Shown here: positions 14,107-52,815 of the stretch, one piece after another
How positions within the stretch are numbered: position 1 is the first letter of the stretch
Layout of the letters: the number at the start of each line of letters is the position of its first letter
Source: an uncultured Pseudomonadota bacterium
Lineage (GTDB): Bacteria; Myxococcota_A; Polyangia; Fen-1088
DNA: 64,000 nt
Reading direction: 5' to 3'
Assembly (NCBI GenBank): GCA_963847705.1
Contig: CAWKBC010000014.1
Span: forward strand, 264,847 to 328,846
Made by a program: the position numbers and the translations under genes
Notes under the pieces: generated by a model
The model's input: the letters and a program-made list of their open reading frames with translations, nothing else
What the model was told of the DNA's origin: nothing
Databases searched by the model: none

Positions 14107-14562
14107 CTAAGGCCCCGAGCCCCTGGCGACGCAGTCGACCTCCAGCGTCGCGTTTGCGGTGCAGGGGATGGGCCGGCGACTGTCGGCGATGGAGAGGGTC
14201 AGGGTCTGCCTTCCGGCCGTCGTACAGAGGTAGCTCGTCGCCGCCGAGCTGGGATTCGCGAAGCGGGCGGCCGGCGACCAGCTGAAGCTGACCGTTTCGC
14301 CGCGGTCTGGATCGAACGCCGTCGCGCTGACGCCGATCGTCCCTCCGACGGAGGTCTGCCTGGGGGCGGCAACCGCCGAGGCGATGCTGGGACATCTGTC
14401 GGCGGCGCCGAAGTCGAGGGCGACGTCGACCTCGCCGGTCTCGGCCATGCGATCTCCGCAACCGAGCAGCAGGAGGCTCGACACCGCGATCGCCAGGGCG
14501 CGCACGAATTGACGCTTCGCAAGGATCGCGCCACCGCGCGGGAGGTGACAGGCCGCGAACAT
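14107..14562 (-). CDS. Small lipoprotein with PKD/Ig-like domain
   Basis: LLGC lipobox; ATAFDPDRGETVSFSWS; start uncertain. Confidence 0.65.
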   Translation of the reverse strand: MFAACHLPRGGAILAKRQFVRALAIAVSSLLLLGCGDRMAETGEVDVALDFGAADRCPSIASAVAAPRQTSVGGTIGVSATAFDPDRGETVSFSWSPAARFANPSSAATSYLCTTAGRQTLTLSIADSRRPIPCTANATLEVDCVARGSGP

Positions 14563-14755: not shown

Positions 14756-15433
14756 TCAGAACCAGGCCTGCCAGCGCCCGTCGGCGAAGACGAGGTGCGC
14801 GGTGATCGACAGCCGATCGCGCTCTCCGATGAACGGTTGGATTTGATGCAGCCGGTAGCTGTCGATGACGACCAGATCGCCTGCCGCGTACTCGACGACG
14901 GCGCTGGGTGCCTGCGCCGCCGCAGCAGCCACGTCGTCGTCTCCTTCCCAGAGGGCGTCCCAGAGGCGCAACCCGCCGCCCCGCAGCGGCGGCTGCAGCA
15001 TGACGATGGCGCTCAGGGCCGGCCGGCGTGCCGCCAGCTCCTCCTCGCACAGTCCCTCGGTGTCGAAATGGACGTCGCCGCCGTTCTCGGAGAGCCATTC
15101 ACCGGCCGGGAAGATGTGGACGCCCGGCCCGCAAAAGCCCGGCCGCGGCGCGACCGGCGCACCGGCGACCTCCGCCAGGATGGTCCGCATGCGCGCTTGA
15201 AGGTCGGGGAGCGCGCGCTCCACCAGCGCATCGGACTCCAGCGCGGTGGCGAAGTATTCGGCTGCCCGATCCTCTTCCAGGTAGGTGTAATAGGCGTGAC
15301 CGAGCGTGAACTGGACGCCCTCGAAGCAGGGGGTCCAGTCGGCGCGCGCCGCGTACACCTCCTGGACCCAGCGCTCGCACTCCGCGCGCGTCAGGACGCC
15401 GCTTTGATGATGAAACCATTCAGCAGGCGCCAT
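14756..15433 (-). CDS. Putative Fe(II)/2-oxoglutarate oxygenase
   Basis: HFD, GGGLRLW, YAAGDLVVIDSYRLHQI, RLSIT: HxD...H...RxS facial-triad pattern. Confidence 0.75.
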   Translation of the reverse strand: MAPAEWFHHQSGVLTRAECERWVQEVYAARADWTPCFEGVQFTLGHAYYTYLEEDRAAEYFATALESDALVERALPDLQARMRTILAEVAGAPVAPRPGFCGPGVHIFPAGEWLSENGGDVHFDTEGLCEEELAARRPALSAIVMLQPPLRGGGLRLWDALWEGDDDVAAAAAQAPSAVVEYAAGDLVVIDSYRLHQIQPFIGERDRLSITAHLVFADGRWQAWF

Positions 15434-16232
15434 CGAGCCCTCGCTGCAACTGCGCCAGGAACCGCGGATCGAACACCCCGTCGACGCGGATCGAGTACCG
15501 AAAGAACGGATCGGCGGCCACCCCGTGATAGTTGCGATCGTCGAACCAATACGCGCGCCCCTCCACCGGCAGGGCTCTCCGCTCGTCCTCGTCCCACAAG
15601 AAGAGACGCTTGTCGGCGCGCGGGCAGAGCGTGATGAAGTGACCGGCCTGCGCCTCGTCTTCGCCGTCGCGGTGAATGGTCCCATGATCGTTCGACTGTA
15701 GGCCGAGCAGGTTGCAGCGACCGAGGCGCACGAACGGCAACCGTTCGATGAACGCGACCGTGCGCGGGAAGACCAGGCGGGCCTCCTCGGTGAAGGCCTT
15801 TCCGTCGCCGTCGGCCCGCTCCTCCCAGGCGAGGTTGGGAATCAGCTCGTAATAGACCTTCCACGGGAAGTAAACGCCATGGCGGTATTCGAGGTACAGC
15901 ATCTGCCGGCGGCTGAGCGGCCAGGGGCGCTCCTCCCCGAACTCGTACTGGTCCCGCCGATCGAGATCGAAGGCGGCGGACGTGTCGGAGAGGGCAACGA
16001 ACCGGGCGAACTCCGAACGGGTCATCCGGGCGATGACCTGGCCGTAGTCGAGGTAGGGATCGTTGGCCGACGAGCGGGGGACGATCCCCATCGACTTGTG
16101 GCTGCCGCCGGTGTAGCCGACCGCGACCTCGGTGAGGCCGAGCGAGATCTCGTCGTCGAGCGCGGCCAGCTCCTCGAGATCGACGTAGGGCTCGAGGTTG
16201 ACGAAGGGGCGGCCGAGGATTCCGCGAATCAT
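15420..16232 (-). CDS. Putative Fe(II)/2OG oxygenase (aspartyl beta-hydroxylase-like DSBH fold)
   Basis: GTIHRD, AYWFDDRNYHGV, RYSIRVDG. Confidence 0.65.
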   Translation of the reverse strand: MIRGILGRPFVNLEPYVDLEELAALDDEISLGLTEVAVGYTGGSHKSMGIVPRSSANDPYLDYGQVIARMTRSEFARFVALSDTSAAFDLDRRDQYEFGEERPWPLSRRQMLYLEYRHGVYFPWKVYYELIPNLAWEERADGDGKAFTEEARLVFPRTVAFIERLPFVRLGRCNLLGLQSNDHGTIHRDGEDEAQAGHFITLCPRADKRLFLWDEDERRALPVEGRAYWFDDRNYHGVAADPFFRYSIRVDGVFDPRFLAQLQRGLDGAC

Positions 16233-16239
16233 CGCCGCC

Positions 16240-17506
16240 TCACCCGCCAAAACCGCCATGCGCGCGACCCAGCGAGCCGCTGCGCCCGAAGCCGCTGGAA
16301 ACCGGGTGCCAGCCACCCGGACTGCGGGGACCTGTGGCCATGGGCAAGATCGCCCGCGGACGGGGATGAAACTGGCATCTCGGTGCGAGCCGCGGCGGGA
16401 TGACGGGGGCCCAGTGCCCGCCGCTCGCCAGGGGCGAAGGAGATCGCCATCCGTACCACCAGGGGAAGCAGCCTTGCGATCCGGGCGAGCCGCCGAAGTA
16501 GTACAGCGGCTGAGGTCCGAAGGAGAGCGGAGCCGGCGAGCAGCCGGGGACCGGTTGCGAGGGCCAGCCGGGCAGCGGCGTCTGTGAGAAGTCGGAGAGC
16601 GCCAGCATCTTCACGTCGATCCCACCCTCGTCGAGCGCGACCAGATCGCCGTTGAGGTCGTCGGCGTCCAGCGAGACCTCGTCGGGCGTCACGTAGAGCA
16701 GCCGGCGGAATCCCGGCTGCCTGGAGGGCCTCGCGCGACGGCAAGCCGGCGAAGTAACGGTTGTCGAACCGCCCGGCGTCATCGGTGTAGGGCGCCAACC
16801 GCTGCCGATCGAGGACGAACAGCGGCGCGGCGCTGGCCGAGCGGGTCGGCCGTGCGCGCTCGAACGACGGCAGGAAGTAGAGCGCCGCGCCGAGGGTCAG
16901 GTGCGCAGGGACGACCCCGTCGGGGTGCGGCCAGTTGTCGAGGACGAAGATCGGGTCGAAGCAGGGCGCGAGCGCCGCCGCCAGCGCCACGGCTTCCGGC
17001 CCCGCGACGTCCAGCACGACGGCGACATCGTTCCGGCAGACGCCGTTGTCGAGGAACAGCGAGAGCAGCGCCCCGCCGCGGCGCCAGGCGACGGCCATCT
17101 CGGAGGTGTAGATGGGGCTGATGGCCGCCCGCAGATCGGCGCTGCGCGGCGCTTCCAGCGACTGAAACAGGGTGGGGACGTAGTAGGGGGCCCAGCGCGG
17201 CTCGGCCGGCGAAAGCCGAGGCGTCAACGTCGACAGAGCCTCGCGCCATCCCAGCCCGCCGCTGACGTCCCGGGGCTGCGCGCCCGGGAAGGCCAGCGGT
17301 CGCCCCTCGTCCCCCACGTTCCAGCCGTCCTGCTGCTGCGCCTCGAGCGCGGCCTGCGTCCGGTCCGGCTCGGTTTCGGAGAGGATATCGGCGCACCCGC
17401 TCACCGTGAGGCCCGCGCCGGTCCAGATGAGCGGCGCCGACCAGCCGCTCAAGAGGCGCGCCAGCGGGCGCGCGCGCAGGGAGGCGCGCCACCAGGAGGT
17501 ACTCAT
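16240..17506 (-). CDS. Lipoprotein of unknown function ending GRSGSLGRAHGGFGG; one-base frameshift near 16710
   Basis: VSGC lipobox; ATGA overlap with the ligase gene; frames join at ...QAAGI/RRLLYV... Confidence 0.7.
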
Positions 17507-18759
17507 GACCTCCTCACGATCGTCGGCGCGCAGGTGGCGCGCCGATCCGTGCCGCCCGATTGCAGGCGGGTGAAGAGCCCGGCGGCGCGACCGCCCACCA
17601 GGTAGACCCCGTAGTTGATCGATTGCCCGGCGCGGTCTCGGAGGGGTTGAAACCGACGTTGCGCGATCCAGCGGGTCGGCAGCGCATCCGCGAGCGCGTC
17701 GGCCCAGGCGGCGGGCGTCGTCTCGGCGCCGATCACCACCTCTTCGCCTTCGCAGCCGTAGTCGGATTTGAGGACCCAGAGCGGCTGCTCCGCGCGCAGG
17801 CGGGGCGCCGCCAGCGCTTCCAGCCGCGACGTGAAGGGGAGGTAGCGGCGAACGATCCGGCGCGCCGGTTCCGAGAAGCGCGCGAGCTCCTCCCAGAGCA
17901 ACGCCATCATTCGCTTGTTCTGGGTCAACACGGCGCCGAACGGATTCACCACCACGCAGCGGCCGCGCGCGATCGCGCCCGCCAGCAGGTCGAGCGGCTC
18001 CGAGAGCGGGGCAGCGTCGCTGTAGGGCGACTCGGAGCGCCAGATCGTGCGCCGCTCGCCCCACCAGTCCGTCTTGTAGTGGCGCCAGATGACGGAGCAG
18101 GAGACCCCGAACAGCGCGACGCCTCCCTGTCCATCCGGGCGCAGATTGAACGGCGATCCCAGGACGACGCGCGCGCCACGCGACTCGAACCACCGCGCGT
18201 ACAGCGAGATGACCGAGAGATCGTCGGTCATCTCCGTCGGATAGACGATGCCGATGGTCAGCGGGGCCCCCGCGGGCAGGAGCGCGCGCACCATGGCGAA
18301 GACGCGGTCGCCGAGGCGGCAGTTCGGATCGTCGAAGCCGGAGGCGCCGGCGCCGTCGACCACCCGATTGAGCGCCACCGCTTCGGGCTCGCCGCTCGGC
18401 GTATCGGAGTTGAGCTCGCAGGCCTGCGGGCCCGCGGCGGTCAGGAAGATGTCGGCCCGCGCGATCCCGTGCCAGTGCGGCGCGCTCATCCGCCACATGA
18501 GCTCGTAGCTCGGAGGGAGATCGAAGAAACGGGCGACCAGGGAGGGATCCTGGACACAGAGCGACGCTGCCTCCGCGTGGATCGCGGCGATCCCTTCCGC
18601 GGCGGCGTAGAGCTCGCGCTCGGTCGCGCAGTCGATCGCGATGGGCGTCATTTGAAACCTTGGCGCGCCGTCGATCCAGGGATCACTCAGGATCCCTTCG
18701 GCGAGGAGATCGGCGGCGAAGTCGCCGTACGACGTGAGGAGCCGGGGGCTGGTCCGCAT
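17503..18759 (-). CDS. Glutathionylspermidine-synthase-family ATP-grasp ligase (YgiC-like)
   Basis: ARADIF, CELNSDTPSG, VLTQNKRMMALLWE, WVLKSDYGCEGEEV, IAQRRF, GVYLVGGRAAG. Confidence 0.85.
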   Translation of the reverse strand: MRTSPRLLTSYGDFAADLLAEGILSDPWIDGAPRFQMTPIAIDCATERELYAAAEGIAAIHAEAASLCVQDPSLVARFFDLPPSYELMWRMSAPHWHGIARADIFLTAAGPQACELNSDTPSGEPEAVALNRVVDGAGASGFDDPNCRLGDRVFAMVRALLPAGAPLTIGIVYPTEMTDDLSVISLYARWFESRGARVVLGSPFNLRPDGQGGVALFGVSCSVIWRHYKTDWWGERRTIWRSESPYSDAAPLSEPLDLLAGAIARGRCVVVNPFGAVLTQNKRMMALLWEELARFSEPARRIVRRYLPFTSRLEALAAPRLRAEQPLWVLKSDYGCEGEEVVIGAETTPAAWADALADALPTRWIAQRRFQPLRDRAGQSINYGVYLVGGRAAGLFTRLQSGGTDRRATCAPTIVRRS

Positions 18760-18773
18760 GCTCGGCCTACTAC

Positions 18774-18788
18774 GCAATCGGCGCGCCA
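18774..18788 (-). promoter_or_regulatory. sigma54 promoter of the ligase operon
   Basis: Minus strand TGGCGCG-CCGA-TTGC immediately upstream of ATG 18759. Confidence 0.75.
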
Positions 18789-18829
18789 GAGCTGAGCCCG
18801 AAGGAGAGGGACTTCGCCCGGCGAAGCCC

Positions 18830-18861
18830 GGGGCGAAACGCCCCGCGGGGCAAAGTGCCTC
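18830..18861. promoter_or_regulatory. Tandem palindromic enhancer (UAS 1)
   Basis: GGGGC-N5-GCCCC-GC-GGGGC-N5-GCCTC. Confidence 0.65.
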
Positions 18862-18874
18862 CTTCTGCGGCTCG

Positions 18875-20281
18875 CTATTCTTCGCGAATGCCGTACCGCT
18901 CGAGCTTGCGGTAAAGCGTCTTGCGATCGAGCCCCAGGACCTCCGCCGCCCGCGTGCGGTGGCCGTGCACCGCCTCGAGGACACGGAGGATGTACCGCCG
19001 CTCCATCTCTTCCAGCGGTGGCAGCTGTCCAGGATCATCGAGGTCGACGATCAGCCGCGAGCGCCGGTAGTCCTGGATCGACTCGGGGAGATCGGCGACG
19101 GTGATTTCCTCGAACCTGGTCAGCGCCACCGCCCGCTCGATGCAGTTGCGAAGCTCTCGAACGTTCCCCGGCCAGGCGTACGCCAACAGCTTCTCGGCGG
19201 CGGGCGTGGCAATTCCGCTCACGCTCTTCCCGGTCGCCGCGGCGATCTGCTCGACCAGCCGCTGCGCCAGCAGGAGGACGTCGTCGCCCCGCGCGCGCAG
19301 CGGGGGCAGCTCGATGCGGATCACGTTGATCCGATAGTAGAGGTCCGACCGGAAGCGCCCACTTTCGATCTCCGCTTCGAGATCGCGGTTGGTGGCGCAG
19401 ACGATCCGCGCGTCGAACGCGCGTTCGTCGTCGCCGCCCACCGGACGGACGCGACGCTCCTCGAGGGCGCGCAGGAGCTTGGCCTGCAGGCCGGCCGGCG
19501 CCTCGCCGATCTCGTCGAGAAACAGTGTTCCGCCACTGGCCTTCACCAGGAGTCCGGCCCGGCTGGAGCGCGCGTCGGTGAACGATCCGCGCGCGTGGCC
19601 AAACAGCTCGCTTTCCAGCAGCGACTCCGGCAACGCGCCGCAGTTGATCGCCACGAACGGGCCGCTCGCACGCCGTCCCTTGTCATGCAGCGCCCGCGCG
19701 ACGAGCTCCTTGCCGGTCCCGCTCTCGCCCGTCACCAGGATCGAGGCGTCGGTGGCGGCGGCGCGCAGAACCGTATCGTACATGCGCAGCATGGCCGGGC
19801 TGCCGCCGTGGAGCGCCGTCCCGGCGAGCCGGGTGGCGGTTGCATCCGCTCCATCTCCTCCGGCCGCACGCCGCAAGCGCCGGACCTCGGCCTGCAGCCG
19901 TCGATAGCCGACCGCGCGCCCGAGCGACAGACCGATCGCCTCGATCTCGAACGGCTTGGTCACGAAGTCGTAGGCCCCCGAGCGGATGGCTGCCACGGCC
20001 GTCTCCAGACTGCCGAAGGCTGTGATGACGACGACGGGCGTGTCGGGACGGTTGGCCGACACCCAGCTCGCCACGTCGAGGCCGGACATCCCGGGCATGT
20101 TCAGATCGACGACGATGGCGTCGAAGTCCGTCTCGTCGAGCAGCGCGAGGGCCGCGTCGCCGGAGGTTCGAGAGGTCACCGCGAACCCGCGCTTCGAGAG
20201 GCCCGCTTCCAGGAGCGTACACATCTCGGGCTCGTCGTCGACGACCAGAAGGCGTCCGGCGGTTGGACCGCCCGCGCTCAC
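18875..20281 (-). CDS. sigma54-dependent response regulator
   Basis: Receiver domain; GESGTGKE; ESELFGHARGSFTDA; WPGNVREL; HTH. Confidence 0.95.
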   Translation of the reverse strand: MSAGGPTAGRLLVVDDEPEMCTLLEAGLSKRGFAVTSRTSGDAALALLDETDFDAIVVDLNMPGMSGLDVASWVSANRPDTPVVVITAFGSLETAVAAIRSGAYDFVTKPFEIEAIGLSLGRAVGYRRLQAEVRRLRRAAGGDGADATATRLAGTALHGGSPAMLRMYDTVLRAAATDASILVTGESGTGKELVARALHDKGRRASGPFVAINCGALPESLLESELFGHARGSFTDARSSRAGLLVKASGGTLFLDEIGEAPAGLQAKLLRALEERRVRPVGGDDERAFDARIVCATNRDLEAEIESGRFRSDLYYRINVIRIELPPLRARGDDVLLLAQRLVEQIAAATGKSVSGIATPAAEKLLAYAWPGNVRELRNCIERAVALTRFEEITVADLPESIQDYRRSRLIVDLDDPGQLPPLEEMERRYILRVLEAVHGHRTRAAEVLGLDRKTLYRKLERYGIREE

Positions 20282-21732
20282 GCCGCCCTCCGGGGCAAGA
20301 ACATCGAGAAGCGGCTCCCCCGTCCCGGTTCGCTGTCGGCCTCGATCCAGCCGCCGTGTTCGTCGACGATGTCGTGGGTCACGGAGAGGCCGAGGCCGGT
20401 TGATTCGCCCACCGGCTTGGTCGTGAAGAACGGCTCGAAGACCCGGGACAACACCTCGGGCGACATCCCCGGCCCGTGGTCGCGCACGGTGAGCTCGAAG
20501 GTCCCGCCGGCCCCGCGCGGTTTCTCGCCGACGTGGCCGTGGGCAGGGCGGCGCCCTCCGGGGTCGCGCAAGGTGACGTCGACGACCGCTCCTTCGGCGC
20601 TGGCCTGGATCGCGTTCACGATCAGGTTGGTGAGCGCCTGCTGCACCTGCGTCGCGTCGGCCGTGACGGGAGCGGTCGCCACCTCGGAGTGAAACTTGAG
20701 CTGAATGCTCTTCTTGCTCGCCAACGTGGAGAGCAACGGCAACACGTCGGCGGCCAGGCGCGAGAGGTCCTGTTCCTCCTTCTGCGGTGGCCGTCGCCGG
20801 GCGTAGTCGAGCAACTGGCGGATGATCTTCGTCATCCGTTCGGCTTGATCAATGATGATCTTGGCGTGGGCCGGCGCCTCACGTTCGTCTTCCACGATCA
20901 AGCGCGCCCTTCCGGCCATCACGTTGAGCGGCGTCCCCAGCTCGTGGGCGACGCTGGAGGCGATTCGTCCGACCGTGGTGAGGCGCTCGGCGTGGCGGAG
21001 CTGTTCGAGGGCGTCGAACCGCTCGCGCGTGGAGGCCCGGACCTCGATGGCGGCGGCCTCGAGTTGATCGAGCATTCCGTTGAGCTCGCGGGTCAGCTCG
21101 CCGAGCTCGTCACGCTGGCGGGGGAGCGACCGTGCGCCGAGATCGCCGGCCGCCACCCGGCGCGCCTGGGCGATCAGCACCGAGATCGGTCCGCCCACCA
21201 CCCAGGCGCCGACCAGCAAGGTCATCAGCATCATCGTCGCGGCAAGCGCCAGCGTGGTCATCACGGTCGCGCGAATCGTACGACGGACGTGAGCGCGGAG
21301 ATCGGGAGGGGGCTCGGAGACGTCGACCGCCCCCACCACCTGACCGTTCGCCCGCACAGGGCTGACCGCGTGGAGCCATCCGGGCGGATCGCTGCGTTCG
21401 TCACGCCAGATCACCTCCTCGCCGCGCGCCACCGCGCCCCGCTCGGCGGAGGGGAGATCGACGCTGGCCTCCCGCAGGTCGACCCAGCTGACGCGATAGC
21501 GGGCCTCGAACCCGTGGAGCCGATCCATTGCGCGACGCACCGGTGCCTCGCCGACGGCTTCCCACATCTTTCCCATGCTGTCGGCGAACGCCCCCGCCGT
21601 CGCCCGATCATCGGAGCGTTGATCGGCCTCGAACTCCGCGCGGTCGCGCCTGAGCTCGAGGAATGCCGCCGCGGCGACCACGACCAACGCGCCGGGGAGA
21701 ACCGCCAAGGCCAGTTTGAGGGTCAGCTTCAC
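20278..21732 (-). CDS. HAMP-domain sensor histidine kinase
   Basis: 2 TM helices, HAMP (RDELGEL), AHELGTPL, NAIQA, GLGL. Confidence 0.95.
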   Translation of the reverse strand: MKLTLKLALAVLPGALVVVAAAAFLELRRDRAEFEADQRSDDRATAGAFADSMGKMWEAVGEAPVRRAMDRLHGFEARYRVSWVDLREASVDLPSAERGAVARGEEVIWRDERSDPPGWLHAVSPVRANGQVVGAVDVSEPPPDLRAHVRRTIRATVMTTLALAATMMLMTLLVGAWVVGGPISVLIAQARRVAAGDLGARSLPRQRDELGELTRELNGMLDQLEAAAIEVRASTRERFDALEQLRHAERLTTVGRIASSVAHELGTPLNVMAGRARLIVEDEREAPAHAKIIIDQAERMTKIIRQLLDYARRRPPQKEEQDLSRLAADVLPLLSTLASKKSIQLKFHSEVATAPVTADATQVQQALTNLIVNAIQASAEGAVVDVTLRDPGGRRPAHGHVGEKPRGAGGTFELTVRDHGPGMSPEVLSRVFEPFFTTKPVGESTGLGLSVTHDIVDEHGGWIEADSEPGRGSRFSMFLPRRAA

Positions 21733-28087: not shown

Positions 28088-29566
28088 CTAGACGCCCTTC
28101 CTGATCTCGGCGAACGCGAGGAGCGCTCGAGCGCGCGCCCAGTGGTGATCGACCATGGGCGGCGGGTAGGTCCCGCCGAGAACGACGCCGGCGCTCGAGA
28201 GGACGTCCGCGGGCGCCTGCCAGGGCGCATGGATGAAGCGCGGCGGGAGCTTCGCCAGCTCGGGGACCCAGCGACGTACGTAGGCGCCGTCAGGATCGAA
28301 CCTGCGTCCCTGGAGCACCGGATTGAAGATGCGGAAGTAGGGGGCGGCGTCTGCCCCGGAGCCCGCGCACCACTGCCAGCCGAGCGTGTTGTCTGCGAGA
28401 TCGGCGTCGACCAGCGTATCCCAGAAGTGGCGCGCCCCTTCCTGCCAGCGAACGAGCAGGTGCTTGACGAGAAACGACGCGGCCACCATCCGGACGCGGT
28501 TGTGCATGAAGCCGGTGGCCCAGAGCTCGCGCATGCCGGCATCGACGAGCGGGTAGCCGGTGAGCCCGCGCCGCCAGGCGCCCGCGGCGGTCGCCGGTGC
28601 CCAAGGAAAACGAAGGAACGCGGGACGCAGCGGCGCCTCGGCCGAGCGCGGGAAGTGGTGGAGCAGGTGGTGCGCGAACTCTCGCCAGGCGAGCTCGCGC
28701 AGGAACGGGGACGGATCGATCTGGCGGCGGGTCGCCGCGCGCTCGACGGCGCTCCAGACGGCGCGGGGGCCGATCTCCCCGAAATGAAGATGGGGCGACA
28801 GGCGCGAGCTGGCGTCGAGATCGGGACGGTCGCGGGCGCGCGCGTAGCGCGGCAGATCGTGCCGCACGAACTGCTTCAACCTGGCGCGCGCGCCCGACTC
28901 ACCGGGGGACCAGGTGGCCCGAAGGCCGGCGTCCCAGCCGACCCGGGGGCGCAGGCCCAGCGCGGCGAGGGACGCGGAGGGCGGCCAGCGCCGCGGAGGA
29001 GGCAACTTGCCGGGCGCGGGTGCCGGGTCTGGCGGCGGTTGGGCCCGGCCAGCTTGCCAAAAAGGAGTGAAGACCTGGAAAGGCTGGCCGGTCTTGGTCG
29101 CAAGCGCTTCCGGCTCCCAGAGGAGGTTCGCCGACGGAAGGCCGAGGTCCGTGGACGTCGCCAGCCCGCGCTCGCGCAACGCCGCGTCGACCCGAGCGTC
29201 GCGCGCCGCGACGACCGGCTCGTAGCGGCGGTTCCAGAACACCGCGCGCGCGCCGGTCTTCTCGGCGAGATCGACCAGCGTCTCCACAGTGGCACCGACC
29301 CGCAGCACCAGGCGGCTCCCTCGGGCGGCGAGCGCGGTCGACAGCGCGCGCAGCGAATCGTGCAGCCAGACGCGGCTCGCGGCGCCGGGCGCGAAAGGCG
29401 CCTCCTCGTCGGGCGCCCAGATGTAGACGGGGATGATCCCGGCCTGCGCCGCCGCTCTGACCGCCGCGCGGAGGGCCGGATTGTCCTGCAGGCGCAGGTC
29501 CAGGCGGAACCAGACGATCACCGGTCCGGCCCTGTCGGAAGCCGCGCTAGGCTTACGTCCTGGCAT
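28088..29566 (-). CDS. phrB: Deoxyribodipyrimidine photolyase (start ATG 29566 or GTG 29522)
   Basis: VWFRLDLRLQDNPAL, SRLSPHLHFGEI, TGYPLVDAGMRELWATGFMHNRVRM, APYFRIFNP. Confidence 0.95.
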   Translation of the reverse strand: MPGRKPSAASDRAGPVIVWFRLDLRLQDNPALRAAVRAAAQAGIIPVYIWAPDEEAPFAPGAASRVWLHDSLRALSTALAARGSRLVLRVGATVETLVDLAEKTGARAVFWNRRYEPVVAARDARVDAALRERGLATSTDLGLPSANLLWEPEALATKTGQPFQVFTPFWQAGRAQPPPDPAPAPGKLPPPRRWPPSASLAALGLRPRVGWDAGLRATWSPGESGARARLKQFVRHDLPRYARARDRPDLDASSRLSPHLHFGEIGPRAVWSAVERAATRRQIDPSPFLRELAWREFAHHLLHHFPRSAEAPLRPAFLRFPWAPATAAGAWRRGLTGYPLVDAGMRELWATGFMHNRVRMVAASFLVKHLLVRWQEGARHFWDTLVDADLADNTLGWQWCAGSGADAAPYFRIFNPVLQGRRFDPDGAYVRRWVPELAKLPPRFIHAPWQAPADVLSSAGVVLGGTYPPPMVDHHWARARALLAFAEIRKGV

Positions 29567-30524
29567 GAACGAACGCCTTCGGATCGGAGTCTCGGCGTGT
29601 CTGCTCGGGCGCGAGGTTCGCTTCGACGGCCAGCACAAGCGGGACGCCTTCCTGGTCGACGCGCTCGGACCCTTCGTCGAGTTCGTCCCGGTCTGCCCCG
29701 AGGTCGAAGTGGGGATGTCGATTCCGCGCGAGCCGGTGCGCCTCGTCGGCGCGGCGCGAAGCCCGCACATGCTCGGCCAGAAATCCGGGGACGACTGGAC
29801 CACACGCATGACGACGTTTTCCGAGCGCCGGGTCGGCGCGCTCGCCCGAGAGGGCCTGTCCGGCTACGTGCTGAAGAAGGACTCGCCGAGCTGCGGGCTT
29901 TCGCGCGTGAAGCTCTACCCGTCCGGGGACCCCGACGCCACGCCGGACCGCGTGGGGCAGGGGCTGTTCGCGGCGGCGCTGACCCGGGCGTTCCCGCATC
30001 TGCCGATTGAAGAAGAGGGCCGGCTCAACGACGCCCACCTCCGAGAGAGCTTCATCGAGCGGGTGTTCGCCTACCACCGATTGCAGAGCCTGTGGGCGAC
30101 GCGCTGGACGCTGCGGTCGCTCATCGCCTTTCACACCGCCAACAAGATGTCTCTGCTCTCGCATGACGAGCCTGGATACCGGCGCCTCGGGCGCCTGGTG
30201 GCCGTCGCCAAGTCGCTTCCCCGAGGCGAGTTGCGCGAGCGTTACGAGGCCGGTTTCATGACCACGCTCGAGAAGCTGGCAACGCCGGGAGGTCACGTCA
30301 ACGTGATGACCCACATGCTGGGCCACTTCACGGATCGGTTGGAGCCGGTCGCCCGCCAGGAGCTGCTCGGCGTCGTCGAAGACTACCGGCGCGGCCTGGT
30401 TCCGTTGATCGCGCCGCTGACGCTGGTTCGCCACTACGTCCGAACGTTGAAGGTGGAGTACCTCCTCGGCCAGACCTATCTCGACCCACACCCGAAAGAG
30501 CTGATGCTGCGGAACCGCGTCTGA
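29565..30524 (+). CDS. YbgA family (DUF523+DUF1722) protein
   Basis: IGVSACLLGREVRFDGQHKRD, VCPEVEVG, KKDSPSCG, LMLRNRV. Confidence 0.9.
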   Translation: MNERLRIGVSACLLGREVRFDGQHKRDAFLVDALGPFVEFVPVCPEVEVGMSIPREPVRLVGAARSPHMLGQKSGDDWTTRMTTFSERRVGALAREGLSGYVLKKDSPSCGLSRVKLYPSGDPDATPDRVGQGLFAAALTRAFPHLPIEEEGRLNDAHLRESFIERVFAYHRLQSLWATRWTLRSLIAFHTANKMSLLSHDEPGYRRLGRLVAVAKSLPRGELRERYEAGFMTTLEKLATPGGHVNVMTHMLGHFTDRLEPVARQELLGVVEDYRRGLVPLIAPLTLVRHYVRTLKVEYLLGQTYLDPHPKELMLRNRV

Positions 30525-31733
30525 GGCCGGTCGAGTCACGCGGTCGGCCCCTTCGACGAACCCGGCGAAGGCGGCCGGGGCGTTCCACCGCGCGAACTCG
30601 TCGCCCAAGCGGCCCGCGTTCTGCGTGTACGACGGTTCGGAGACCAGGCGGGCGAGGGTGTCGGCGAGAAGCTGGCGCGTCAGCGTTCCCGACCGCAGCA
30701 AAATCCCGGCACCCGCGTCCTGGATCGCCGTCATGGCCAGGTGCTGATCGAGGTTGGCGGCGATCCCCAGGACCGGTCGCCCCTCGGCGAGCGCCTGGTA
30801 ACCGGTGGTGCTGCCGCCGTTCGAGACGACCAGCGCCGCGCGGCGGGCCGCGAGATGCCCGGGGAGGTAATCAGCGACGTGGACGTGCCGGGGAAGGGCG
30901 CCCAGTTGCGACCGGCCTGCGGTCGCGACCAGGACCTGATACCCGAGCCCGGCGGCGACATCGACCACCAGCGGGAGACGCTCGATTCGCCCCGACGAGC
31001 CGAGCGTCACGTAGATCGTCGGCCGCTGCGGATCGAGGGCGTGCCACCAGGGCGGCAGCGGAACCGGAGGCGACCAGAGCACCGGCCCGAGGAACTGCTG
31101 ATGCGCCGGAAGCTTCCGCGTGGGGATCAAGGCCGGGATGTCCGGGAAGAGCGTGTGGTCGCCGTGCGTGAGCACCTCTGCCAGGCTCCCCAGCGACGGG
31201 AGACCGTGCTGCGCGCGGAGCGCGTTGACCGGTCGCGCGAAGTGGCGAAAGACCGCCGGCAGGGCCTTCGGGAAATAGCGCGAGGCCAGGCGCACCCCCA
31301 GGAGGCTCACGATCGGATGCTCGGGGAGCGGAAAGTCCTCGCGGAGCGCGTACGGGCTCCAGTAGGCGTTGATGAGGGAGACATAACGAATGCCTTCCAG
31401 GGCCGCCGAGATTGACAGCGAGAGCCGGAGGTCCCCGATGACCAGCCACGGTCGGAGCGCCCGGAGCAGCGCCCGCTCTTCGTCGACGTAGCGGCTCAAG
31501 GTCCGCCGGCCGTAGATCCGACGGCCCGAGGCCACACGCGCCGCCACGGTCTCGGGCGACAGCGAGTGGATCCGGTGGCGGGTGAACGCCGTGCCGGCGA
31601 AGATCATCTCGTCGAAGCGTGCCGCGGCGAAGTGCACCTCGAAGCGGGCCGGATCGAGGGCGCGCGCCAGCGTCGCCAGGCGCACCACCTGCGCCAGCGT
31701 GACGGCCTCCGAGACGAAGAGAACGCGGAGCAC
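30525..31733 (-). CDS. Family 1 (GT-B) glycosyltransferase; 3' end uncertain (ORF stays open to 29553)
   Basis: IYVTLGSSG, VADYLPG, SNGGSTTGYQAL...G.P.LG...DQ. Confidence 0.85.
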
Positions 31734-31739
31734 GGCGGC

Positions 31740-32390
31740 TCAGCGGCAGCGGGCCAGGGCCTGGGCGGCGAGCTGCTTCCACTCGGCGGCGTCGAGACCG
31801 ATCGCGGCGAGATCACCGCGGCTCTCCACCGCCAGCGCCAGAGATCGCGCGCGTCCGCAGTCGCCGTTGTCGGCGAAGAAAGCGGCCGCCAGCGCCTGGT
31901 TCCCCGGGAAATCCGGGGCGCGGCCGAGAGCGAGCAGGAAGTAGCTGGTCGCCTTTCGGGTTGATCCGACGGAGATCAAGGCGGGCGCTTTCCAGTAGAG
32001 GTTGCCGAGAGCGCGCGCCGCGGCGGCGTGATCGTATTCGGGGTGCTGCTGCTCGAGGCGGAGCAGGGTCGCCTCGATGTCGGAGATGACGCCGAGGGCG
32101 TGCAGCCGCCCGTGGGTCAGCGCTTCACCCCCCAGATTCGCCGCCAGCCAGAGCAGCGCGGCCGGATCGTCGGGCCTCTTCTTCAATTGTTCGCGCGCGG
32201 CGTCGATCCCCCGCTGGTACGCGCGCCGGGCCTCGCTGTCATTGGGGGCGGCCTTTCCGGCGCGGTAGGCGCGCTCGGCCTCGCCGGAGATCTCGACGCC
32301 CTCGACGCGCTCAGCGCCCATCACCACCACGCCGGCGCTGAGCGCGAGCGAGCTGGAGAGGATCGCGACTTGCCACGCGCGCCGCCTCAC
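31740..32390 (-). CDS. Secreted TPR-like (TatT-like) protein
   Basis: Signal peptide; helical repeats; ARALGNLYWKAP...SVG. Confidence 0.6.
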   Translation of the reverse strand: MRRRAWQVAILSSSLALSAGVVVMGAERVEGVEISGEAERAYRAGKAAPNDSEARRAYQRGIDAAREQLKKRPDDPAALLWLAANLGGEALTHGRLHALGVISDIEATLLRLEQQHPEYDHAAAARALGNLYWKAPALISVGSTRKATSYFLLALGRAPDFPGNQALAAAFFADNGDCGRARSLALAVESRGDLAAIGLDAAEWKQLAAQALARCR

Positions 32391-32986
32391 CGGCTGCCTG
32401 CCCCGAGCCCGGGCCCGAGCATCCCCCCGAGAGCGGCCAGGGTTTCAGCCACGCCGGCGTAGCCGCGCCAGTACCAGAGCCACCAGCCGCTCATCATGAT
32501 GCCGTGGCCGAGCAGGATGAAGACATGGCTCCACATCTCGACCACGTCGGAGCGACCGCCGAGATATCGCCGCCAGTGCATCACCTCGTCGACCAGGCTG
32601 TAGAGAAACGACAGGATGGTGAGCACCAGCGCCGGGACGGCGTAGCTCGCGCCGCCCGCGTAGGCGGCGCACAGCAGGACCGAGCTGGCCACACCGGCGC
32701 CGATGATGATGTGATGGACCAGCGCCTCGCCGCCGCGGAGCGCTTCTTTGTAGATGGTCCGGTGGCCGATGGTGTCGACCGCGATCGCCAGCGTGAAGAT
32801 CGCCGCCCCGAGCGGCAGCAGCGACGCCTCCGCGGGGAGCGGCGCGGAGGCGCGATGCCCCGCCCAGACGAAGCCGCCCGTGGCGAGACAGAGCCCCACC
32901 ATGAGGCCGACCCAGGCGGCGTAGACGATCCAGTCGACCCGCCTGAACTGCCGGATTCGCCCCAGATAAATCCCGAGCTGATTCAT
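32387..32986 (-). CDS. Integral membrane protein with D/E-x-x-(x)-H motifs, function unknown
   Basis: About 5 TM helices; DTIGH, EALVHH, DEVMH, EMWSH...H; coupled to crtB. Confidence 0.75.
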   Translation of the reverse strand: MNQLGIYLGRIRQFRRVDWIVYAAWVGLMVGLCLATGGFVWAGHRASAPLPAEASLLPLGAAIFTLAIAVDTIGHRTIYKEALRGGEALVHHIIIGAGVASSVLLCAAYAGGASYAVPALVLTILSFLYSLVDEVMHWRRYLGGRSDVVEMWSHVFILLGHGIMMSGWWLWYWRGYAGVAETLAALGGMLGPGLGAGSR

Positions 32987-33864
32987 AACGACCGTCGCAG
33001 GTCGACACGGCCGCCTCCAACAAGGCCGGCGCAGAGCGTCCACAGAGTGCCGAACAGCGCCCGCAGGGCGAGCCAGGTCTTCCGGCCGCGAGAGACCACG
33101 GCGCGTCCCGCGCGAACATCGAAGTGGCGGCGGGCGATCACCCGTCCTAGCTCGGCGTAGATGAGGCGCGCCGCCCGGATCCCGATCGCGCAGCGCACGG
33201 GCAGGGCGGTTAGGCCGGCGTCCGCCGAGGCGTAGAATTCGTCCGCCCGGCGTAGAAGCTCCGCCACCGCGCGGGGGACCTCGCCCTGCGGATCGCCAGG
33301 CCGCCGGCAGGCCTCCAGCACATCCTTCGGAAGGTAGACCCGATTCCGGCGCTCGTCTTCGGCGACGTCGCGGCAAATGTTGGTCAGCTGCATCGCGACG
33401 CCGAGGTCGACCGCCCGCCGCAACACGGACCAGTTCCGTACCCCCATCACGTGCGCCATCATGAGGCCGACGGTGCCGGCCGCCCGATAGCAATAGAGCA
33501 GGAGCTCGTCGAAGGTCTGGTAGCGGACCTCGCCTACGTCCATCGCCATGCCGTCGACGAGTTCCTCGGCGTAGCGCCGCGGGATCGCGTGCCGCCGCAC
33601 GACCTCCTGGAACCCGGCGAGCACCGGATCGTTCTCGACGCCGCCACCGTAGATTCGCGCGAGCTCGGCGCGCAGCTGTACGACGGCGGCCGCGCGCGCG
33701 TCCGCGTTGCGTGGTCCGTCGACGGCGTCGTCGCACCGGCGACACCAGGCGTAGAGCGCCGCTGCGTCGTCGCGGCACCAGGGCGGCAAGAGCCGCCCGG
33801 CGAACGCGAAGCTCTTCGAGTGATGCGCGAGGATTCGGTGCGCGGTCAGTCTGCGGGTCATCAC
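32983..33864 (-). CDS. crtB: Phytoene synthase
   Basis: SKSF, RRCDDAVD, YCYRAAGTVG, QLTNICRDVAED, RVYLP. Confidence 0.95.
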   Translation of the reverse strand: MMTRRLTAHRILAHHSKSFAFAGRLLPPWCRDDAAALYAWCRRCDDAVDGPRNADARAAAVVQLRAELARIYGGGVENDPVLAGFQEVVRRHAIPRRYAEELVDGMAMDVGEVRYQTFDELLLYCYRAAGTVGLMMAHVMGVRNWSVLRRAVDLGVAMQLTNICRDVAEDERRNRVYLPKDVLEACRRPGDPQGEVPRAVAELLRRADEFYASADAGLTALPVRCAIGIRAARLIYAELGRVIARRHFDVRAGRAVVSRGRKTWLALRALFGTLWTLCAGLVGGGRVDLRRSL

Positions 33865-35369
33865 GCCGCCGCCGTCCGTTGCCAGCCGAGATCTCCCAGC
33901 ACCAGGCGCGTCGTCGCCTTCGCCGAGTTGATGACGCCCGGAACGCCCGCTCCTGGGTGCGTCCCCGCGCCGACGATGTAGAGCCCCGGGATCTCCGGGT
34001 CCCGGTTGTGAGGGCGGAAGTAGGCGCTTTGGGCCAAACGCGGCGCGACCGAGAAGGCCGAGCCCTGGAAGGCGTTCAGCTGGTCTCGAAAGTCGACCGG
34101 CGTGAACACGCGCCGAACGACGATCTTCTGCCGCAGCCCCGGCAGCACCGTCTCGAGGCCCGCCAGGATCCGCTCGGCGTATCCCGCCGATTCACGCTCC
34201 CAGTCGATCGCCGCCGCCCCCAGATGGGGCACCGGCGCGAGCACGTAGAACGACTCGCAGCCCGGGGGCGCCAGGCTGGGATCGGTCACGGTCGGCTGGT
34301 GCAGGTAGAGGCTGAAGTCGGGCGGGAGGTCCGGCCCGTGGAAGATCTCGTGCAGCATCTCCCGGTAGCGCGGGCCGAAGAGGACCGTGTGGTGCGCCAT
34401 GCCGGGGTAGCGGCGGCGCGTCCCGAAGTAGATGACGAACAACGACATCGACCAGTCCATGCGCTCCAGTTTTTGGGTCCGGCGCGCGGCCCCGGCCTCG
34501 CCCCGGTAGAGGTGGTCGTAGGTGTGGTGGAGATCGGCGTTGGAGACGACGGCGTCAAACAGCTCCTCGCTTCCGCCCGACCTCACCGCGTGAACCGCCG
34601 TACCTCCGCGCGCTTCGACACGCACCCCGTCGACGGGGCTCGACAACCGCAGCTCGCCCCCGAGCCGCTGGTAGAGCTCGACGAACCCGTTCACCAGCGC
34701 GCCCGTTCCGCCGCGCGGGAAGAAGACCCCCCACTTGTGCTCGAGGAAGGGAATCAACGTGTAGATCGCGCTCGTCTCGAACGGATTGCCCCCGATCAAC
34801 AGCGCGTGGAACGACAGCGCCTGTCGCAGCCGCTCGTCCTTCACGAACCGGCTGACGGCAGCGTAGACCGAGCGATCGGCGCGCAGCCGCGCCAGCTGGG
34901 GGGCAACCCGCACCATGTCGGCGAAGCGCAGGAAGGCGGTGTCGACCAGCCCTTCATAGCCGGCCTCGAACACGCGGCGGCTGTAGTCCATGAACCGGTC
35001 GAACCCGTCCCGATCGCCGGGGGCCAGGGCCGCAACCTCGGCGCGCATGGCCGCCGCATCGCCGCCGTAGTCGAACCTGGTCCCGTCGGGCCATTGCAGC
35101 CGGTAGAACGGGCGGACCGGGTCCAGCGTGACGTGGTCGGCCATCCGCTCACCCGCCAGCGCGAACAGCTCCTCGAGGCAATGCGGAGCGGTGATGACGG
35201 TCGGCCCGGCGTCGAAGGTGAAACCCTGGTCTCGATAAACATAGGCGCGGCCACCCGGTCGATCCCGCGCCTCGTACATGATGGTTCGCACGCCCGCCGC
35301 CTGCAGGCGGATGCCGGCCGCCAGCCCGCCGAACCCGCTCCCGACGATCGCCACCCGCGCTTCATCCAT
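33861..35369 (-). CDS. crtI: Phytoene desaturase
   Basis: GSGFGGL, FDAGPTVIT, QSAYFRPHNRD, GAGTHPGAGVPGV. Confidence 0.95.
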   Translation of the reverse strand: MDEARVAIVGSGFGGLAAGIRLQAAGVRTIMYEARDRPGGRAYVYRDQGFTFDAGPTVITAPHCLEELFALAGERMADHVTLDPVRPFYRLQWPDGTRFDYGGDAAAMRAEVAALAPGDRDGFDRFMDYSRRVFEAGYEGLVDTAFLRFADMVRVAPQLARLRADRSVYAAVSRFVKDERLRQALSFHALLIGGNPFETSAIYTLIPFLEHKWGVFFPRGGTGALVNGFVELYQRLGGELRLSSPVDGVRVEARGGTAVHAVRSGGSEELFDAVVSNADLHHTYDHLYRGEAGAARRTQKLERMDWSMSLFVIYFGTRRRYPGMAHHTVLFGPRYREMLHEIFHGPDLPPDFSLYLHQPTVTDPSLAPPGCESFYVLAPVPHLGAAAIDWERESAGYAERILAGLETVLPGLRQKIVVRRVFTPVDFRDQLNAFQGSAFSVAPRLAQSAYFRPHNRDPEIPGLYIVGAGTHPGAGVPGVINSAKATTRLVLGDLGWQRTAAA

Positions 35370-36453
35370 AGGAGACCTCCAGCCTTTCGATCTCGCTGGC
35401 CAGCAGTCCCAGCTCGTCGCGGTCGCCCACCCGTTTCCGCAGCTCGCGAAGGGCGTCGTCGAGATAGGCGGCTGCTTGCCGGCGTCCCTTCATCCCCACG
35501 GCGATGCGGAGCTCTGCCGCCAGCACCCGCGCCCGCGTGCCGTCGGGGTCTCCGCCTTCGCAGAGCGCACGGGCGCTCGCCTGCAGCTGCGAAAATGCGG
35601 AGCCGTCCAGATCGATCGCCGCGTGCGCCCAGGGCCAGGTCGGCCGGTCGTTGCGCAGGTCCTCGAGCGCCTTGGTGTCGGTTGCCTCGGGCGTGGGCGC
35701 GGTGAGATTGCCGAAGTCGTCGAGCATCTGCAGACCGAGCCCCATCCGCCGGCCAAACTGGGCGAGCGCTTCAGTCCGATCGGCAGGCGCCCCCGCGGCG
35801 AGGGCACCGGCGACGGCCGCCAGCTCCATGAGCGCGCCCGTCTTCAACATCGTGCTGGTCGCGACGGTCCGATAGATCAGCGCGCGGGGCATCCGCGCGA
35901 TCGAGATCGAAAGGTCGAGCGCCTGTCCCAGGTGGCCGCGGTGGAGCGCCTCCGCCACGGCGTCGTGGATCCGACCGCGCGCGGCGCGCGGCAACGGAAG
36001 CCGATTCACCATATTCAACGCCCAGAAGTACATCCAGGTCCCGGTGTTGAGCGTGCGGGGGACACCGTGCACCAGGTGCACCGCGGCGGCGCCTCGCCGG
36101 AGCTTCGAGCCGTCTTCGATGTCGTCGACGATGAGGCTCCCCGCGTGAACGATCTCGACGAGCGCGGGGAGAAGCGCGGGCACCTGGCCCGGTCCGTCGC
36201 CCAGCCGCCACCCGAGCTCGCACATCCGGGCCCGGAACTGCCGGCTGGGACGCCCGAGGATGTCGCGCGCCACGTCGCCCAGCGCCCGATCCCACACCGC
36301 CCGCGGCAAGGCGGGCCCGGTCGGCGTCGCCGGCCGCTCGGGCCAGTCCTCCACGTGGGCGGCGCGCTCGAGCGCGCTCGAGGAGAGCGCCTCGTCGACC
36401 AGCGCCGGCAGGCCAGTCGCCGCCGGCGTCATTTGCCGCGGGCGCGCGCTCAT
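35362..36453 (-). CDS. crtE: Geranylgeranyl diphosphate synthase
   Basis: SLIVDDIEDGSKLRRG, GQALDL, KTG, QMLDD. Confidence 0.9.
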   Translation of the reverse strand: MSARPRQMTPAATGLPALVDEALSSSALERAAHVEDWPERPATPTGPALPRAVWDRALGDVARDILGRPSRQFRARMCELGWRLGDGPGQVPALLPALVEIVHAGSLIVDDIEDGSKLRRGAAAVHLVHGVPRTLNTGTWMYFWALNMVNRLPLPRAARGRIHDAVAEALHRGHLGQALDLSISIARMPRALIYRTVATSTMLKTGALMELAAVAGALAAGAPADRTEALAQFGRRMGLGLQMLDDFGNLTAPTPEATDTKALEDLRNDRPTWPWAHAAIDLDGSAFSQLQASARALCEGGDPDGTRARVLAAELRIAVGMKGRRQAAAYLDDALRELRKRVGDRDELGLLASEIERLEVSYG

Positions 36454-37619: not shown

Positions 37620-37658
37620 CGAGGTCCCCCCCGCTGAACGCACGAGCGCCGCGAACGG

Positions 37659-48896: not shown

Positions 48897-49326
48897 CGCT
48901 CGGAATTCCAGCCTTCGCTTCGGCCGGTCAAAATACCATACCGAAGACGTACGCCCGATAGGGCCGCCACCGGTATCATGGAAAACCCTGTTCGTACGTT
49001 TCGGAGATGTTTCTTGGCCGGCGGGCCGAACGGGCTTGGCGCCTCCCACGGCCCACCGATGTAAAGCGTGATCAACCTCCCGCCAGGCCGGCCCGCGACA
49101 GGTGCCGGAGCGGCGGAATAACTATGCGGACAACGCGCCCGACGCCGGAGCACCGAAAACGCGGAGCGGAACGGGATTAAAGCGGGCGCGCTCCGCTCGA
49201 AGAGTCTTCAGCAATTCATCGAAGAAGACGATCGAGGGGTCGATTCTCCGTCAGAGAAATGAGCGAGATCAGGGGCTTACCGTCACAGGACGTGTCGGGC
49301 CGTCACCCCTGGTCTCGCTCGAGTGG

Positions 49327-50100: not shown

Positions 50101-50136
50101 GATGCCACTGACCATTCGGATGCCACTGACCATTCG
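50101..50136. repeat. Exact 18-bp tandem duplication over a start codon
   Basis: GATGCCACTGACCATTCG x2. Confidence 0.9.
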
Positions 50137-52785: not shown

Positions 52786-52815
52786 CGTCTGTCACAAGAG
52801 AGAAGGAGGTGCGCC

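What the first reader, a model, noticed from the sequence alone, without database searches (positions are those of the whole stretch)
14756..18759. Candidate novel system: GSP-synthase-like ATP-grasp ligase + GFGG-tailed lipoprotein + two Fe/2OG oxygenases
Seen: four tightly coupled genes (ATGA overlap, 7-bp gap, 14-bp overlap) behind a sigma54 promoter. Known: YgiC/YjfC-type ligases are ATPases with unknown substrates, usually paired with small DUF1190 (YgiB) lipoproteins ending in RGGFG-like tails. Here the partner is a ~420-aa lipoprotein and two non-haem iron oxygenases are appended. Inference: a pathway ligating a hydroxylated amine, polyamine or peptide onto a protein C-terminus, or making a modified peptide metabolite. 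I know of no described pathway with this gene set.
Basis: partly seen in the sequence, partly recalled or inferred. Interest (0 to 1): 0.85.

Follow-up and report, generated by a model that had tools for sequence, protein, structure and literature searches.

The report
Myxobacterial polyamine-ligase module with added oxygenases
A four-gene set kept together across many soil myxobacteria pairs a peptide-polyamine ligase relative with a membrane-anchored protein of unknown fold and two iron oxygenases, and likely caps that protein's glycine-rich tail with an oxidised polyamine, which would be an undescribed protein modification.

Summary
The four genes, their overlaps and a conserved sigma-54 site are real. 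One correction: in this assembly the lipoprotein gene has one extra base near 16710, so the GFGG tail is out of frame; close relatives are intact (421 aa). The ligase is a remote YgiC/YjfC relative (E. coli peptide-spermidine ligases, physiological acceptor unknown) and keeps the catalytic and acidic amine-pocket residues. The partner is not DUF1190: it has a confidently predicted domain with no clear fold match, but ends in a YjfM-like tail (RSGSxGR motif, 113 of 116). Phylum-wide the oxygenases are an add-on (9 of 23 partner-bearing genomes); the usual partners are DUF350 and an unknown acidic protein. A betaine/carnitine-type Rieske oxygenase joins, and is fused to, an oxygenase-1 paralogue. 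Best reading (0.45): polyamine capping of the tail plus oxidative tailoring; no substrate is shown. An earlier scan note proposed the tail-as-target idea for a phage YgiB-YgiC pair. New variant of a known kind.

The parts
20278..21732 (-). HAMP histidine kinase, likely regulator of the operon
   Evidence: HAMP, HisKA, HATPase_c; the same kinase/regulator pair precedes the ligase in close relatives
18875..20281 (-). NtrC-type sigma-54 activator, likely driving the promoter below
   Evidence: Response_reg, Sigma54_activat, HTH_8; adjacent to the ligase in close loci such as L001, L006-L010, L015, L020, L025; control of the operon is inferred
18774..18788 (-). sigma-54-type -24/-12 site TGGC-N7-TTGC; its distance to the ATG predicts an almost leaderless transcript
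   Evidence: sequence; conserved offset in related loci; activity not tested
17503..18759 (-). YgiC/YjfC/glutathionylspermidine-synthetase-like ATP-grasp ligase, 418 aa, no amidase domain
   Evidence: PF03738 above cut-off; profile's best solved relatives YgiC 1.3e-10, Gss 4.6e-8, YjfC 1.6e-7; R101, D103, E115, N117, K282, K331, D180 invariant in 31 of 31
16240..17506 (-). Membrane-anchored partner (lipobox LTVSG-C38; folded core of about residues 50-310; disordered Pro/Gly tail); one extra base near 16709-16713 in this assembly
   Evidence: 387 homologues, closest 96% identical and 421 aa; model pTM 0.79, residues 1-44 and 389-421 below pLDDT 50; no Pfam, NCBIfam or clear fold match; frameshift
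16243..16284 (-). C-terminal motif RSGSLGR-AHGGFGG, proposed acceptor for the ligase (out of frame in this assembly)
   Evidence: motif in 113 of 116 full-length homologues; last residue G 79, S 22, A 14, R 1; resembles the end of E. coli YjfM
15420..16232 (-). Oxygenase 1: Fe(II)/2-oxoglutarate-type double-stranded beta-helix protein, AspH-like, 270 aa
   Evidence: H187, D189, H236, R249 invariant in 74 of 74; model pLDDT 95; Foldseek E 7.9e-7 and Z 11.9 to hydroxylases; Atlas cluster PF05118 score 0.94
14756..15433 (-). Oxygenase 2: WelO5-like Fe(II)/2-oxoglutarate protein that keeps the Asp ligand, so predicted hydroxylase and not halogenase, 225 aa
   Evidence: PF22814 28 bits against cut-off 27; H122, D124, H196, R207 invariant in 16 of 16; profile hits WelO5 structures at E 3e-4 to 3e-3

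Best explanation
The ligase likely joins a polyamine to the free C-terminal carboxyl of the partner protein's glycine/serine tail, and the two oxygenases likely oxidise that amine (before or after ligation), giving a membrane-anchored protein predicted to carry an oxidised polyamine cap. Shown: gene set, linkage, conserved active-site residues, conserved tail, oxygenase folds. From the known family: ATP-dependent acyl-phosphate chemistry with a polyamine nucleophile. Inferred: the tail is the acceptor (about 0.6); the oxygenases belong to the same pathway (about 0.85); they act on the amine and not on tail residues (about 0.55 of that); modification happens in the cytoplasm before export; the upstream kinase and sigma-54 activator switch the operon on. 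In this assembly the tail is out of frame, more likely by assembly error (about 0.65) than by a real lesion.
For: Ligase: best solved relative is YgiC; Gss R316, D318, E330, N332, K498, K533 are kept in 31 of 31, and the amine pocket E391/E392 maps to D179 (E 25, D 6) and D180 (31 of 31), S337 to S122 (roles of E391 and S337 from passages of PMC6272389). YgiC has peptide-spermidine ligase activity with unknown physiological substrate (passage of PMC11762307; RefSeq names). Coupling: ligase directly upstream of the partner in 60 of 60 metagenome loci with at least 700 bases upstream (of 80), and in 13 of 14 remote-partner loci. Tail: kept in 113 of 116 close homologues, a Gly-rich GGFG...G/S tail also ends the remote versions, several of which show no signal peptide by eye, and YjfM, whose domain is unrelated, ends in SRGGYGRS...WGG. 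Oxygenases: in 191 genomes of a related family partner 63, oxygenase 1 67, oxygenase 2 63; all three in 60, none in 122; 59 of those 60 also have the close-type ligase (one truncated at a contig end); oxygenase 1 lies within 6 kb of the partner in 48 of 61 in several gene orders. A Rieske oxygenase closest to betaine/stachydrine/carnitine oxygenases lies beside an oxygenase-1 copy in 4 fetched loci and within 250 bases of one in 6 of 10 further genomes (against 99), and is fused to it in 3 sequences; such enzymes act on small amines (own knowledge). Five remote loci of one genus lie next to a three-gene block that, in the locus scanned, is arginine decarboxylase, agmatinase and a homospermidine-synthesis-like gene (one event).
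Against: No substrate or activity was tested. Only 9 of 23 partner-bearing genomes in the phylum sample have the oxygenases, so they are dispensable for the core. No tail feature tracks the oxygenases (the His after GRx does not). The window's partner has a lipobox but no twin-arginine motif, so access of a cytoplasmic ligase to the C-terminus before export is unexplained (twin-Arg pattern in only 22 of 119). The last residue varies (G, S, A). The partner core has invariant D166, D233, R236, N249, D283 in 22 of 22 and may itself be an enzyme. Gss R538 is not kept (C336). Oxygenase 1 folds equally like protein hydroxylases (AspH, PHD2) and small-molecule hydroxylases. The Rieske gene was not found in the window's own genome (84.7% complete). 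Genomes are kin, so the counts overstate independence.
Confidence: 0.45

Rival explanations
1. RiPP-like tailoring: the ligase amidates the tail with an ordinary polyamine, while the oxygenases hydroxylate residues of the tail or of the Pro-rich linker; the tail may then stay on the protein or be clipped off as a modified peptide.
For: Oxygenase 1 resembles AspH and prolyl hydroxylases that act on peptides; an oxygenase-1 copy lies within 1.6 kb (start to start) of the partner gene in 34 of 61 genomes; the tail is disordered.
Against: No residue of the tail co-varies with oxygenase presence; fusion of an oxygenase-1 paralogue to a small-amine-type Rieske oxygenase points to a small substrate; no protease or exporter recurs among the neighbours scanned.
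Confidence: 0.2
2. Small-molecule pathway: oxygenases and ligase make a diffusible acyl-polyamine or peptide-polyamine metabolite, and the partner's folded core is an enzyme or binding protein for it; the tail is a docking or regulatory element.
For: Precedent: the E-64 pathway uses an Fe/2OG epoxidase and an ATP-grasp enzyme structurally near YgiC on small molecules (passages of PMC12568646; Cp1B hit by the ligase profile at E 0.0025). Up to four oxygenases occur in some genomes. The partner core has an invariant polar cluster. DUF350 membrane protein usually precedes the ligase.
Against: It does not explain why unrelated partner domains (DUF1190 and this one) end in a similar Gly-rich motif at a fixed distance from a small terminal residue; no recurring acyl-donor or transporter genes among neighbours scanned.
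Confidence: 0.2
3. Co-regulation only: the oxygenases serve an unrelated envelope or stress function (for example lipid hydroxylation) and sit in the same regulon.
For: Absent from 14 of 23 partner-bearing genomes; oxygenase 2 is often on the opposite strand or further off (within 12 kb in 36 of 61); oxygenase 1 occurs without the partner in G096 and G397.
Against: Near-identical presence/absence in 191 genomes; when the system is split in G215 each piece keeps an oxygenase-1 copy; oxygenase-positive loci fall in three ligase sub-clades (quick tree).
Confidence: 0.1

Closest known systems
E. coli ygiB-ygiC and yjfL-yjfM-yjfC (DUF350, DUF1190 lipoprotein, peptide-spermidine ligase)
   Same: Ligase of the same clan with the same catalytic and acidic-pocket residues; adjacent lipoprotein with a Gly-rich RGG/RSG-aromatic-G tail; DUF350 beside the ligase in most relatives.
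   Different: Ligase too remote for a single-sequence PDB hit; partner about twice as long with an unrelated domain (no hit of its profile to YgiB or YjfM) and placed after the ligase; oxygenases, Rieske protein, acidic unknown protein and sigma-54 control are not part of the E. coli loci.
PspA-linked and PspA-free DUF350/polyamine operons (Ravi et al., bioRxiv 10.1101/2020.09.24.301986; passages seen)
   Same: DUF350, glutathionylspermidine-synthetase-like ligase, variable lipoprotein, polyamine genes, potassium channel (one here near L130).
   Different: The passages read name DUF1190, Ctha_1186, DUF4247 and others but no oxygenases and no partner like this one; supplementary tables were not seen; no PspA among neighbours scanned.
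Glutathionylspermidine synthetase/amidase Gss
   Same: Synthetase fold and catalytic residues.
   Different: No amidase domain; S335, D387, T441, R538 positions differ; closer to YgiC by profile.
Fungal E-64 pathway (Cp1A Fe/2OG epoxidase, Cp1B ATP-grasp; PMC12568646, passages seen)
   Same: Fe/2OG oxygenase working with a YgiC-like ATP-grasp enzyme and polyamines.
   Different: Small-molecule pathway with an adenylating amide synthetase and no tailed membrane protein; only weak ligase similarity (E 0.0025).

Membership tests
GSP_synth clan (PF03738; YgiC/YjfC-like) | Pfam score above curated cut-off | tested here: met
   46.9 bits against 29.3
GSP_synth clan (PF03738; YgiC/YjfC-like) | Catalytic and Mg/ATP residues R-x-D, E-x-N, two lysines | tested here: met
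   Gss R316, D318, E330, N332, K498, K533 equivalents in 31 of 31; their roles are recalled, not from a call
GSP_synth clan (PF03738; YgiC/YjfC-like) | Acidic polyamine pocket (Gss E391/E392, S337) | tested here: met
   D179 (E 25, D 6), D180 (31 of 31), S122 (S or T in 25 of 31); roles from PMC6272389
YgiC/YjfC peptide-spermidine ligases | Peptide-spermidine ligase activity | not testable with these tools
   needs an assay
Gss synthetase/amidase | N-terminal amidase domain | tested here: not met
   418-aa protein aligns only to the synthetase part
DUF1190 lipoproteins (YgiB/YjfM) | DUF1190 domain | tested here: not met
   no Pfam family for intact homologues P0002, P0088; partner profile does not hit YgiB or YjfM
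DUF1190 lipoproteins (YgiB/YjfM) | Lipobox and Gly-rich C-terminal tail | tested here: met
   lipobox pattern in 93 of 119, tail motif in 113 of 116; likeness to the YjfM end judged by eye; lipidation itself not tested
yjfIJKLMC-type operon | DUF350 gene beside the ligase | tested here: not met
   absent from the window's operon (one weak hit on another contig), though present in most more distant relatives
Fe(II)/2-oxoglutarate oxygenases | HxD...H triad with distal Arg | tested here: met
   oxygenase 1, 74 of 74; oxygenase 2, 16 of 16
Fe(II)/2-oxoglutarate oxygenases | Double-stranded beta-helix fold | tested here: met
   oxygenase 1 model: Z 11.9, rmsd 3.0, 149 aligned to 7v4p; tied with PHD, proline hydroxylases and AspH. 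Oxygenase 2 was not folded; sequence evidence only
AspH family PF05118 | Pfam match of oxygenase 1 | tested here: inconclusive
   no Pfam hit; Atlas feature match 0.94 to a cluster 81% PF05118; one remote relative hits below cut-off
WelO5-type halogenases | Small residue in place of the metal-binding Asp | tested here: not met
   D124 invariant in 16 of 16; aligned with the Asp of chain 5iqu, where 8aut shows Gly in the VHVG motif; the rule is recalled

The most novel reading that the evidence does not exclude
A previously undescribed post-translational modification: C-terminal capping of an envelope protein of new fold with an oxidatively tailored polyamine, built by a dedicated cascade of up to four oxygenases (two AspH-like paralogues, a WelO5-like hydroxylase and a Rieske enzyme), present in about a third of one large myxobacterial family, and revealing the partner's tail as the physiological acceptor of the whole YgiC/YjfC family.
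Probability: 0.3. Interest if true: 0.85.

Novelty: new variant of a known kind. Interest (0 to 1): 0.6.

Why it matters
The physiological acceptor of YgiC/YjfC-type ligases is stated to be unknown (PMC11762307). Here an unrelated partner domain carries the same kind of tail, which singles out the tail as a testable acceptor. The tightly co-inherited oxygenases point to new amine or peptide oxidation chemistry by two uncharacterised enzyme families, and the partner core is a well-predicted domain without a clear fold match. Oxygenase-1 homologues occur in named cultured myxobacteria (Sorangium So ce233 and So ce131, Hyalangium versicolor), so a native test may be possible; their gene context was not checked.

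Tried and rejected
Single-sequence PDB search with the ligase found nothing useful; the profile was needed. Fold searches with the partner model gave no clear match (Foldseek best E 0.015; best Z 5.3, rmsd 10.9); the whole 421-residue model was searched, not the core alone, so this does not show a new fold. Atlas search with the partner core: no usable hit. Longer forms of the partner: 3 hits, judged read-through artefacts of error-prone contigs and not fusions. Idea that a His in the tail is the oxygenase target: rejected, it does not track oxygenase presence. Halogenase role for oxygenase 2: rejected (Asp kept). No match for oxygenase 1 in phage records or for the partner in plasmid records. 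No RNA holder was listed and no run from the same strain was found, so expression and the frameshift could not be settled with reads. Pederick et al. 2023 is not held. Searches for a putrescine C-hydroxylase paper gave only a reference-list entry. The genome-contig scan used a single protein and gave only 5 loci. The ligase tree is the quick version; the careful search did not finish.
Full report
Observation. The window holds four co-oriented minus-strand genes: ligase 17503-18759, partner from 17506, oxygenase 1 15420-16232, oxygenase 2 14756-15433. The ATGA and 14-base overlaps are as stated. A TGGC-N7-TTGC site lies at 18774-18788, and the same motif sits at nearly the same offset in the close relatives where the ligase is the first gene; a HAMP kinase and an NtrC-type activator precede it. 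The partner's own frame does not reach the GFGG tail: the window has one extra base near 16709-16713, absent from 4 of 4 aligned related loci and from 5 contigs of the 3 runs that cover the place (4 laid). It is the only non-triplet indel inside the coding sequences of the 7 kb shared with L006-L008. The closest homologue is 96% identical over the part searched and intact at 421 aa. The assembly shows one other frame switch, in an EF-G-like gene, in about 74 kb covered, so I put assembly error at about 0.65; no reads of the strain were found. Named close hits are Polyangia; I infer a soil myxobacterial genome.

Ligase. PF03738 above cut-off. A 31-sequence profile finds YgiC (1.3e-10), Gss (4.6e-8) and YjfC (1.6e-7) first. 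Aligned with the E. coli proteins, the equivalents of Gss R316, D318, E330, N332, K498 and K533 are invariant, E391/E392 map to D179/D180 and S337 to S122; R538 is not kept. E391 and S337 bind the spermidine amine (passages of PMC6272389); the roles of the others are recalled. YgiC and YjfC have peptide-spermidine ligase activity and the physiological substrate is unknown (passage of PMC11762307; passage of PMC12568646; reference entry in PMC12270671; RefSeq names). The primary paper (Pederick 2023) was not held, so I do not know whether it discusses partner tails.

Partner. 387 homologues at E up to 0.001 among 7999 scored, best 120 listed. Of 119 non-window proteins, 93 match a lipobox pattern and 22 a twin-Arg pattern (2 both); most of the latter have a hydrophobic anchor without Cys (simple patterns). 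The model is confident for the core and disordered at both ends; no family or clear fold match. The tail motif RSGSxGR is in 113 of the 116 proteins of 380 aa or more, 7 residues from the end in 84, and the last residue is G, S or A in 115. YjfM ends SRGGYGRSSSARGHWGG and YgiB has TRGGFG...MGG, although the partner profile hits neither. Remote versions keep the core's invariant D, D, R, N, D residues (22 of 22) and a GGFG...G/S tail, several without a visible signal peptide. The ligase lies directly upstream in 60 of 60 metagenome loci with enough flank (of 80 kept from 427, ranked by likeness and partly redundant), 14 of 21 genome loci (5 more have it elsewhere in the locus, 2 not) and 13 of 14 remote loci. 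In most loci outside the window's clade the order is DUF350, ligase, partner, acidic unknown protein, much like yjfL-yjfM-yjfC and the DUF350/polyamine operons in passages of bioRxiv 10.1101/2020.09.24.301986 (supplements closed and may list such loci).

Oxygenases. Oxygenase 1 has no Pfam hit but invariant H187, D189, H236, R249 (74 of 74), a pLDDT 95 model and the double-stranded beta-helix fold, tied among nucleoside, prolyl, proline and Asp/Asn hydroxylases; the Atlas links it to a PF05118 cluster. Oxygenase 2 is WelO5-like with H122, D124, H196, R207 invariant, so a hydroxylase is predicted. Co-occurrence: in 401 phylum genomes the partner profile matches 34 (23 with E below 1e-60, window included), oxygenase 1 12 and oxygenase 2 14 (10 with E below 1e-80); those 10 all have oxygenase 1, and 9 have the close-type partner. 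So 14 of 23 partner genomes lack the oxygenases, and 2 oxygenase-1 genomes lack the partner. In 191 genomes of one unnamed family of the same class (probably Polyangiaceae, inference): partner 63, oxygenase 1 67, oxygenase 2 63, all three 60, none 122, mixed 9; 59 of the 60 have the close-type ligase (counted by hand). Oxygenase 1 is within 6 kb of the partner in 48 of 61, oxygenase 2 within 12 kb in 36 of 61; many assemblies are fragmented. Thresholds differed by search (1e-40, 1e-20, 1e-30, 1e-70), the profiles were built from partner-linked loci, and kin are not independent (32 to 40 of 89 genera). Oxygenase-positive loci fall in three ligase sub-clades mixed with negative ones (quick tree of 46 chosen rows). 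Fifty of 67 genomes have two or more oxygenase-1 matches. A Rieske oxygenase nearest to betaine, stachydrine and carnitine oxygenases (below the GbcA cut-off) lies beside the second paralogue in 4 fetched loci, was found in 7 of 10 hand-picked genomes, 6 within 250 bases of an oxygenase-1 match, and is fused to it in 3 sequences. It was not found in the window's genome. A Rieske putrescine C-hydroxylase is recalled from Li et al. 2016, of which I saw only the reference entry. More remote oxygenase-1 relatives exist (561 clusters) with unknown context.

Mechanism. Most likely the ligase phosphorylates the partner's terminal carboxyl and transfers it to a polyamine, and in these myxobacteria the oxygenases tailor the amine (0.45). 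Rivals: hydroxylation of the tail itself (0.2), a small-molecule pathway of the E-64 type (0.2; passages of PMC12568646), co-regulation only (0.1). Against the best reading: nothing was assayed; the export route must let a cytoplasmic ligase reach the C-terminus, and the window's partner has no twin-Arg motif; no tail feature tracks the oxygenases; the core may be an enzyme.

Novelty. Nine paper searches of the held library (other hits seen as listings only) showed no description of this partner family or of oxygenases with such ligases in bacteria; subscription papers are not covered. One earlier scan note (e1-5370584) proposed the lipoprotein tail as target for a phage YgiB-YgiC pair; it is an unchecked AI note and not evidence, and I held that reading before seeing it. 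Verdict: real, conserved and apparently undescribed variant of the DUF350/lipoprotein/YgiC-type module; interest 0.6.

Noticed in passing
L038:7164-7742, L116:7317-7871 and others: An acidic protein of about 190 aa without Pfam family (one member weakly DUF1517) follows the partner gene in 21 of 21 genome loci and 34 of 61 metagenome loci with enough flank; it is missing from the window's clade, where the oxygenases take its place.
   Followed up: partly
L157:6067-8472; P0245; P0247: Rieske oxygenase (betaine/carnitine type) fused to the second oxygenase-1 paralogue.
   Followed up: partly
L138-L151: A second, remote class of ligase plus partner-core genes; some partners are lipoproteins, others lack a visible signal peptide; two loci carry a second DUF350-partner pair; five loci of one genus neighbour a polyamine-synthesis block.
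   Followed up: partly
window 18790-18875: Strong hairpin between the sigma-54 activator and the promoter (-52.9 kcal/mol, z -3.45), possibly a terminator.
   Followed up: no
G000:C39 near 15250-15310: Frame switch in an elongation-factor-G-like gene of the same assembly, the only other one seen in about 74 kb of covered coding DNA.
   Followed up: partly
window 29556-37643: Carotenoid-type cluster: lycopene cyclase, polyprenyl synthetase, desaturase-like flavoprotein, phytoene synthase and a glycosyltransferase-like gene.
   Followed up: no
window 14107-14562: Small lipoprotein-like gene without Pfam family with 8 further matches in the genome.
   Followed up: no
window 48000-64000: GC falls from about 0.70 to 0.58-0.66 and an integrase-like frame lies at 57395-58738, suggesting an island edge.
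   Followed up: no
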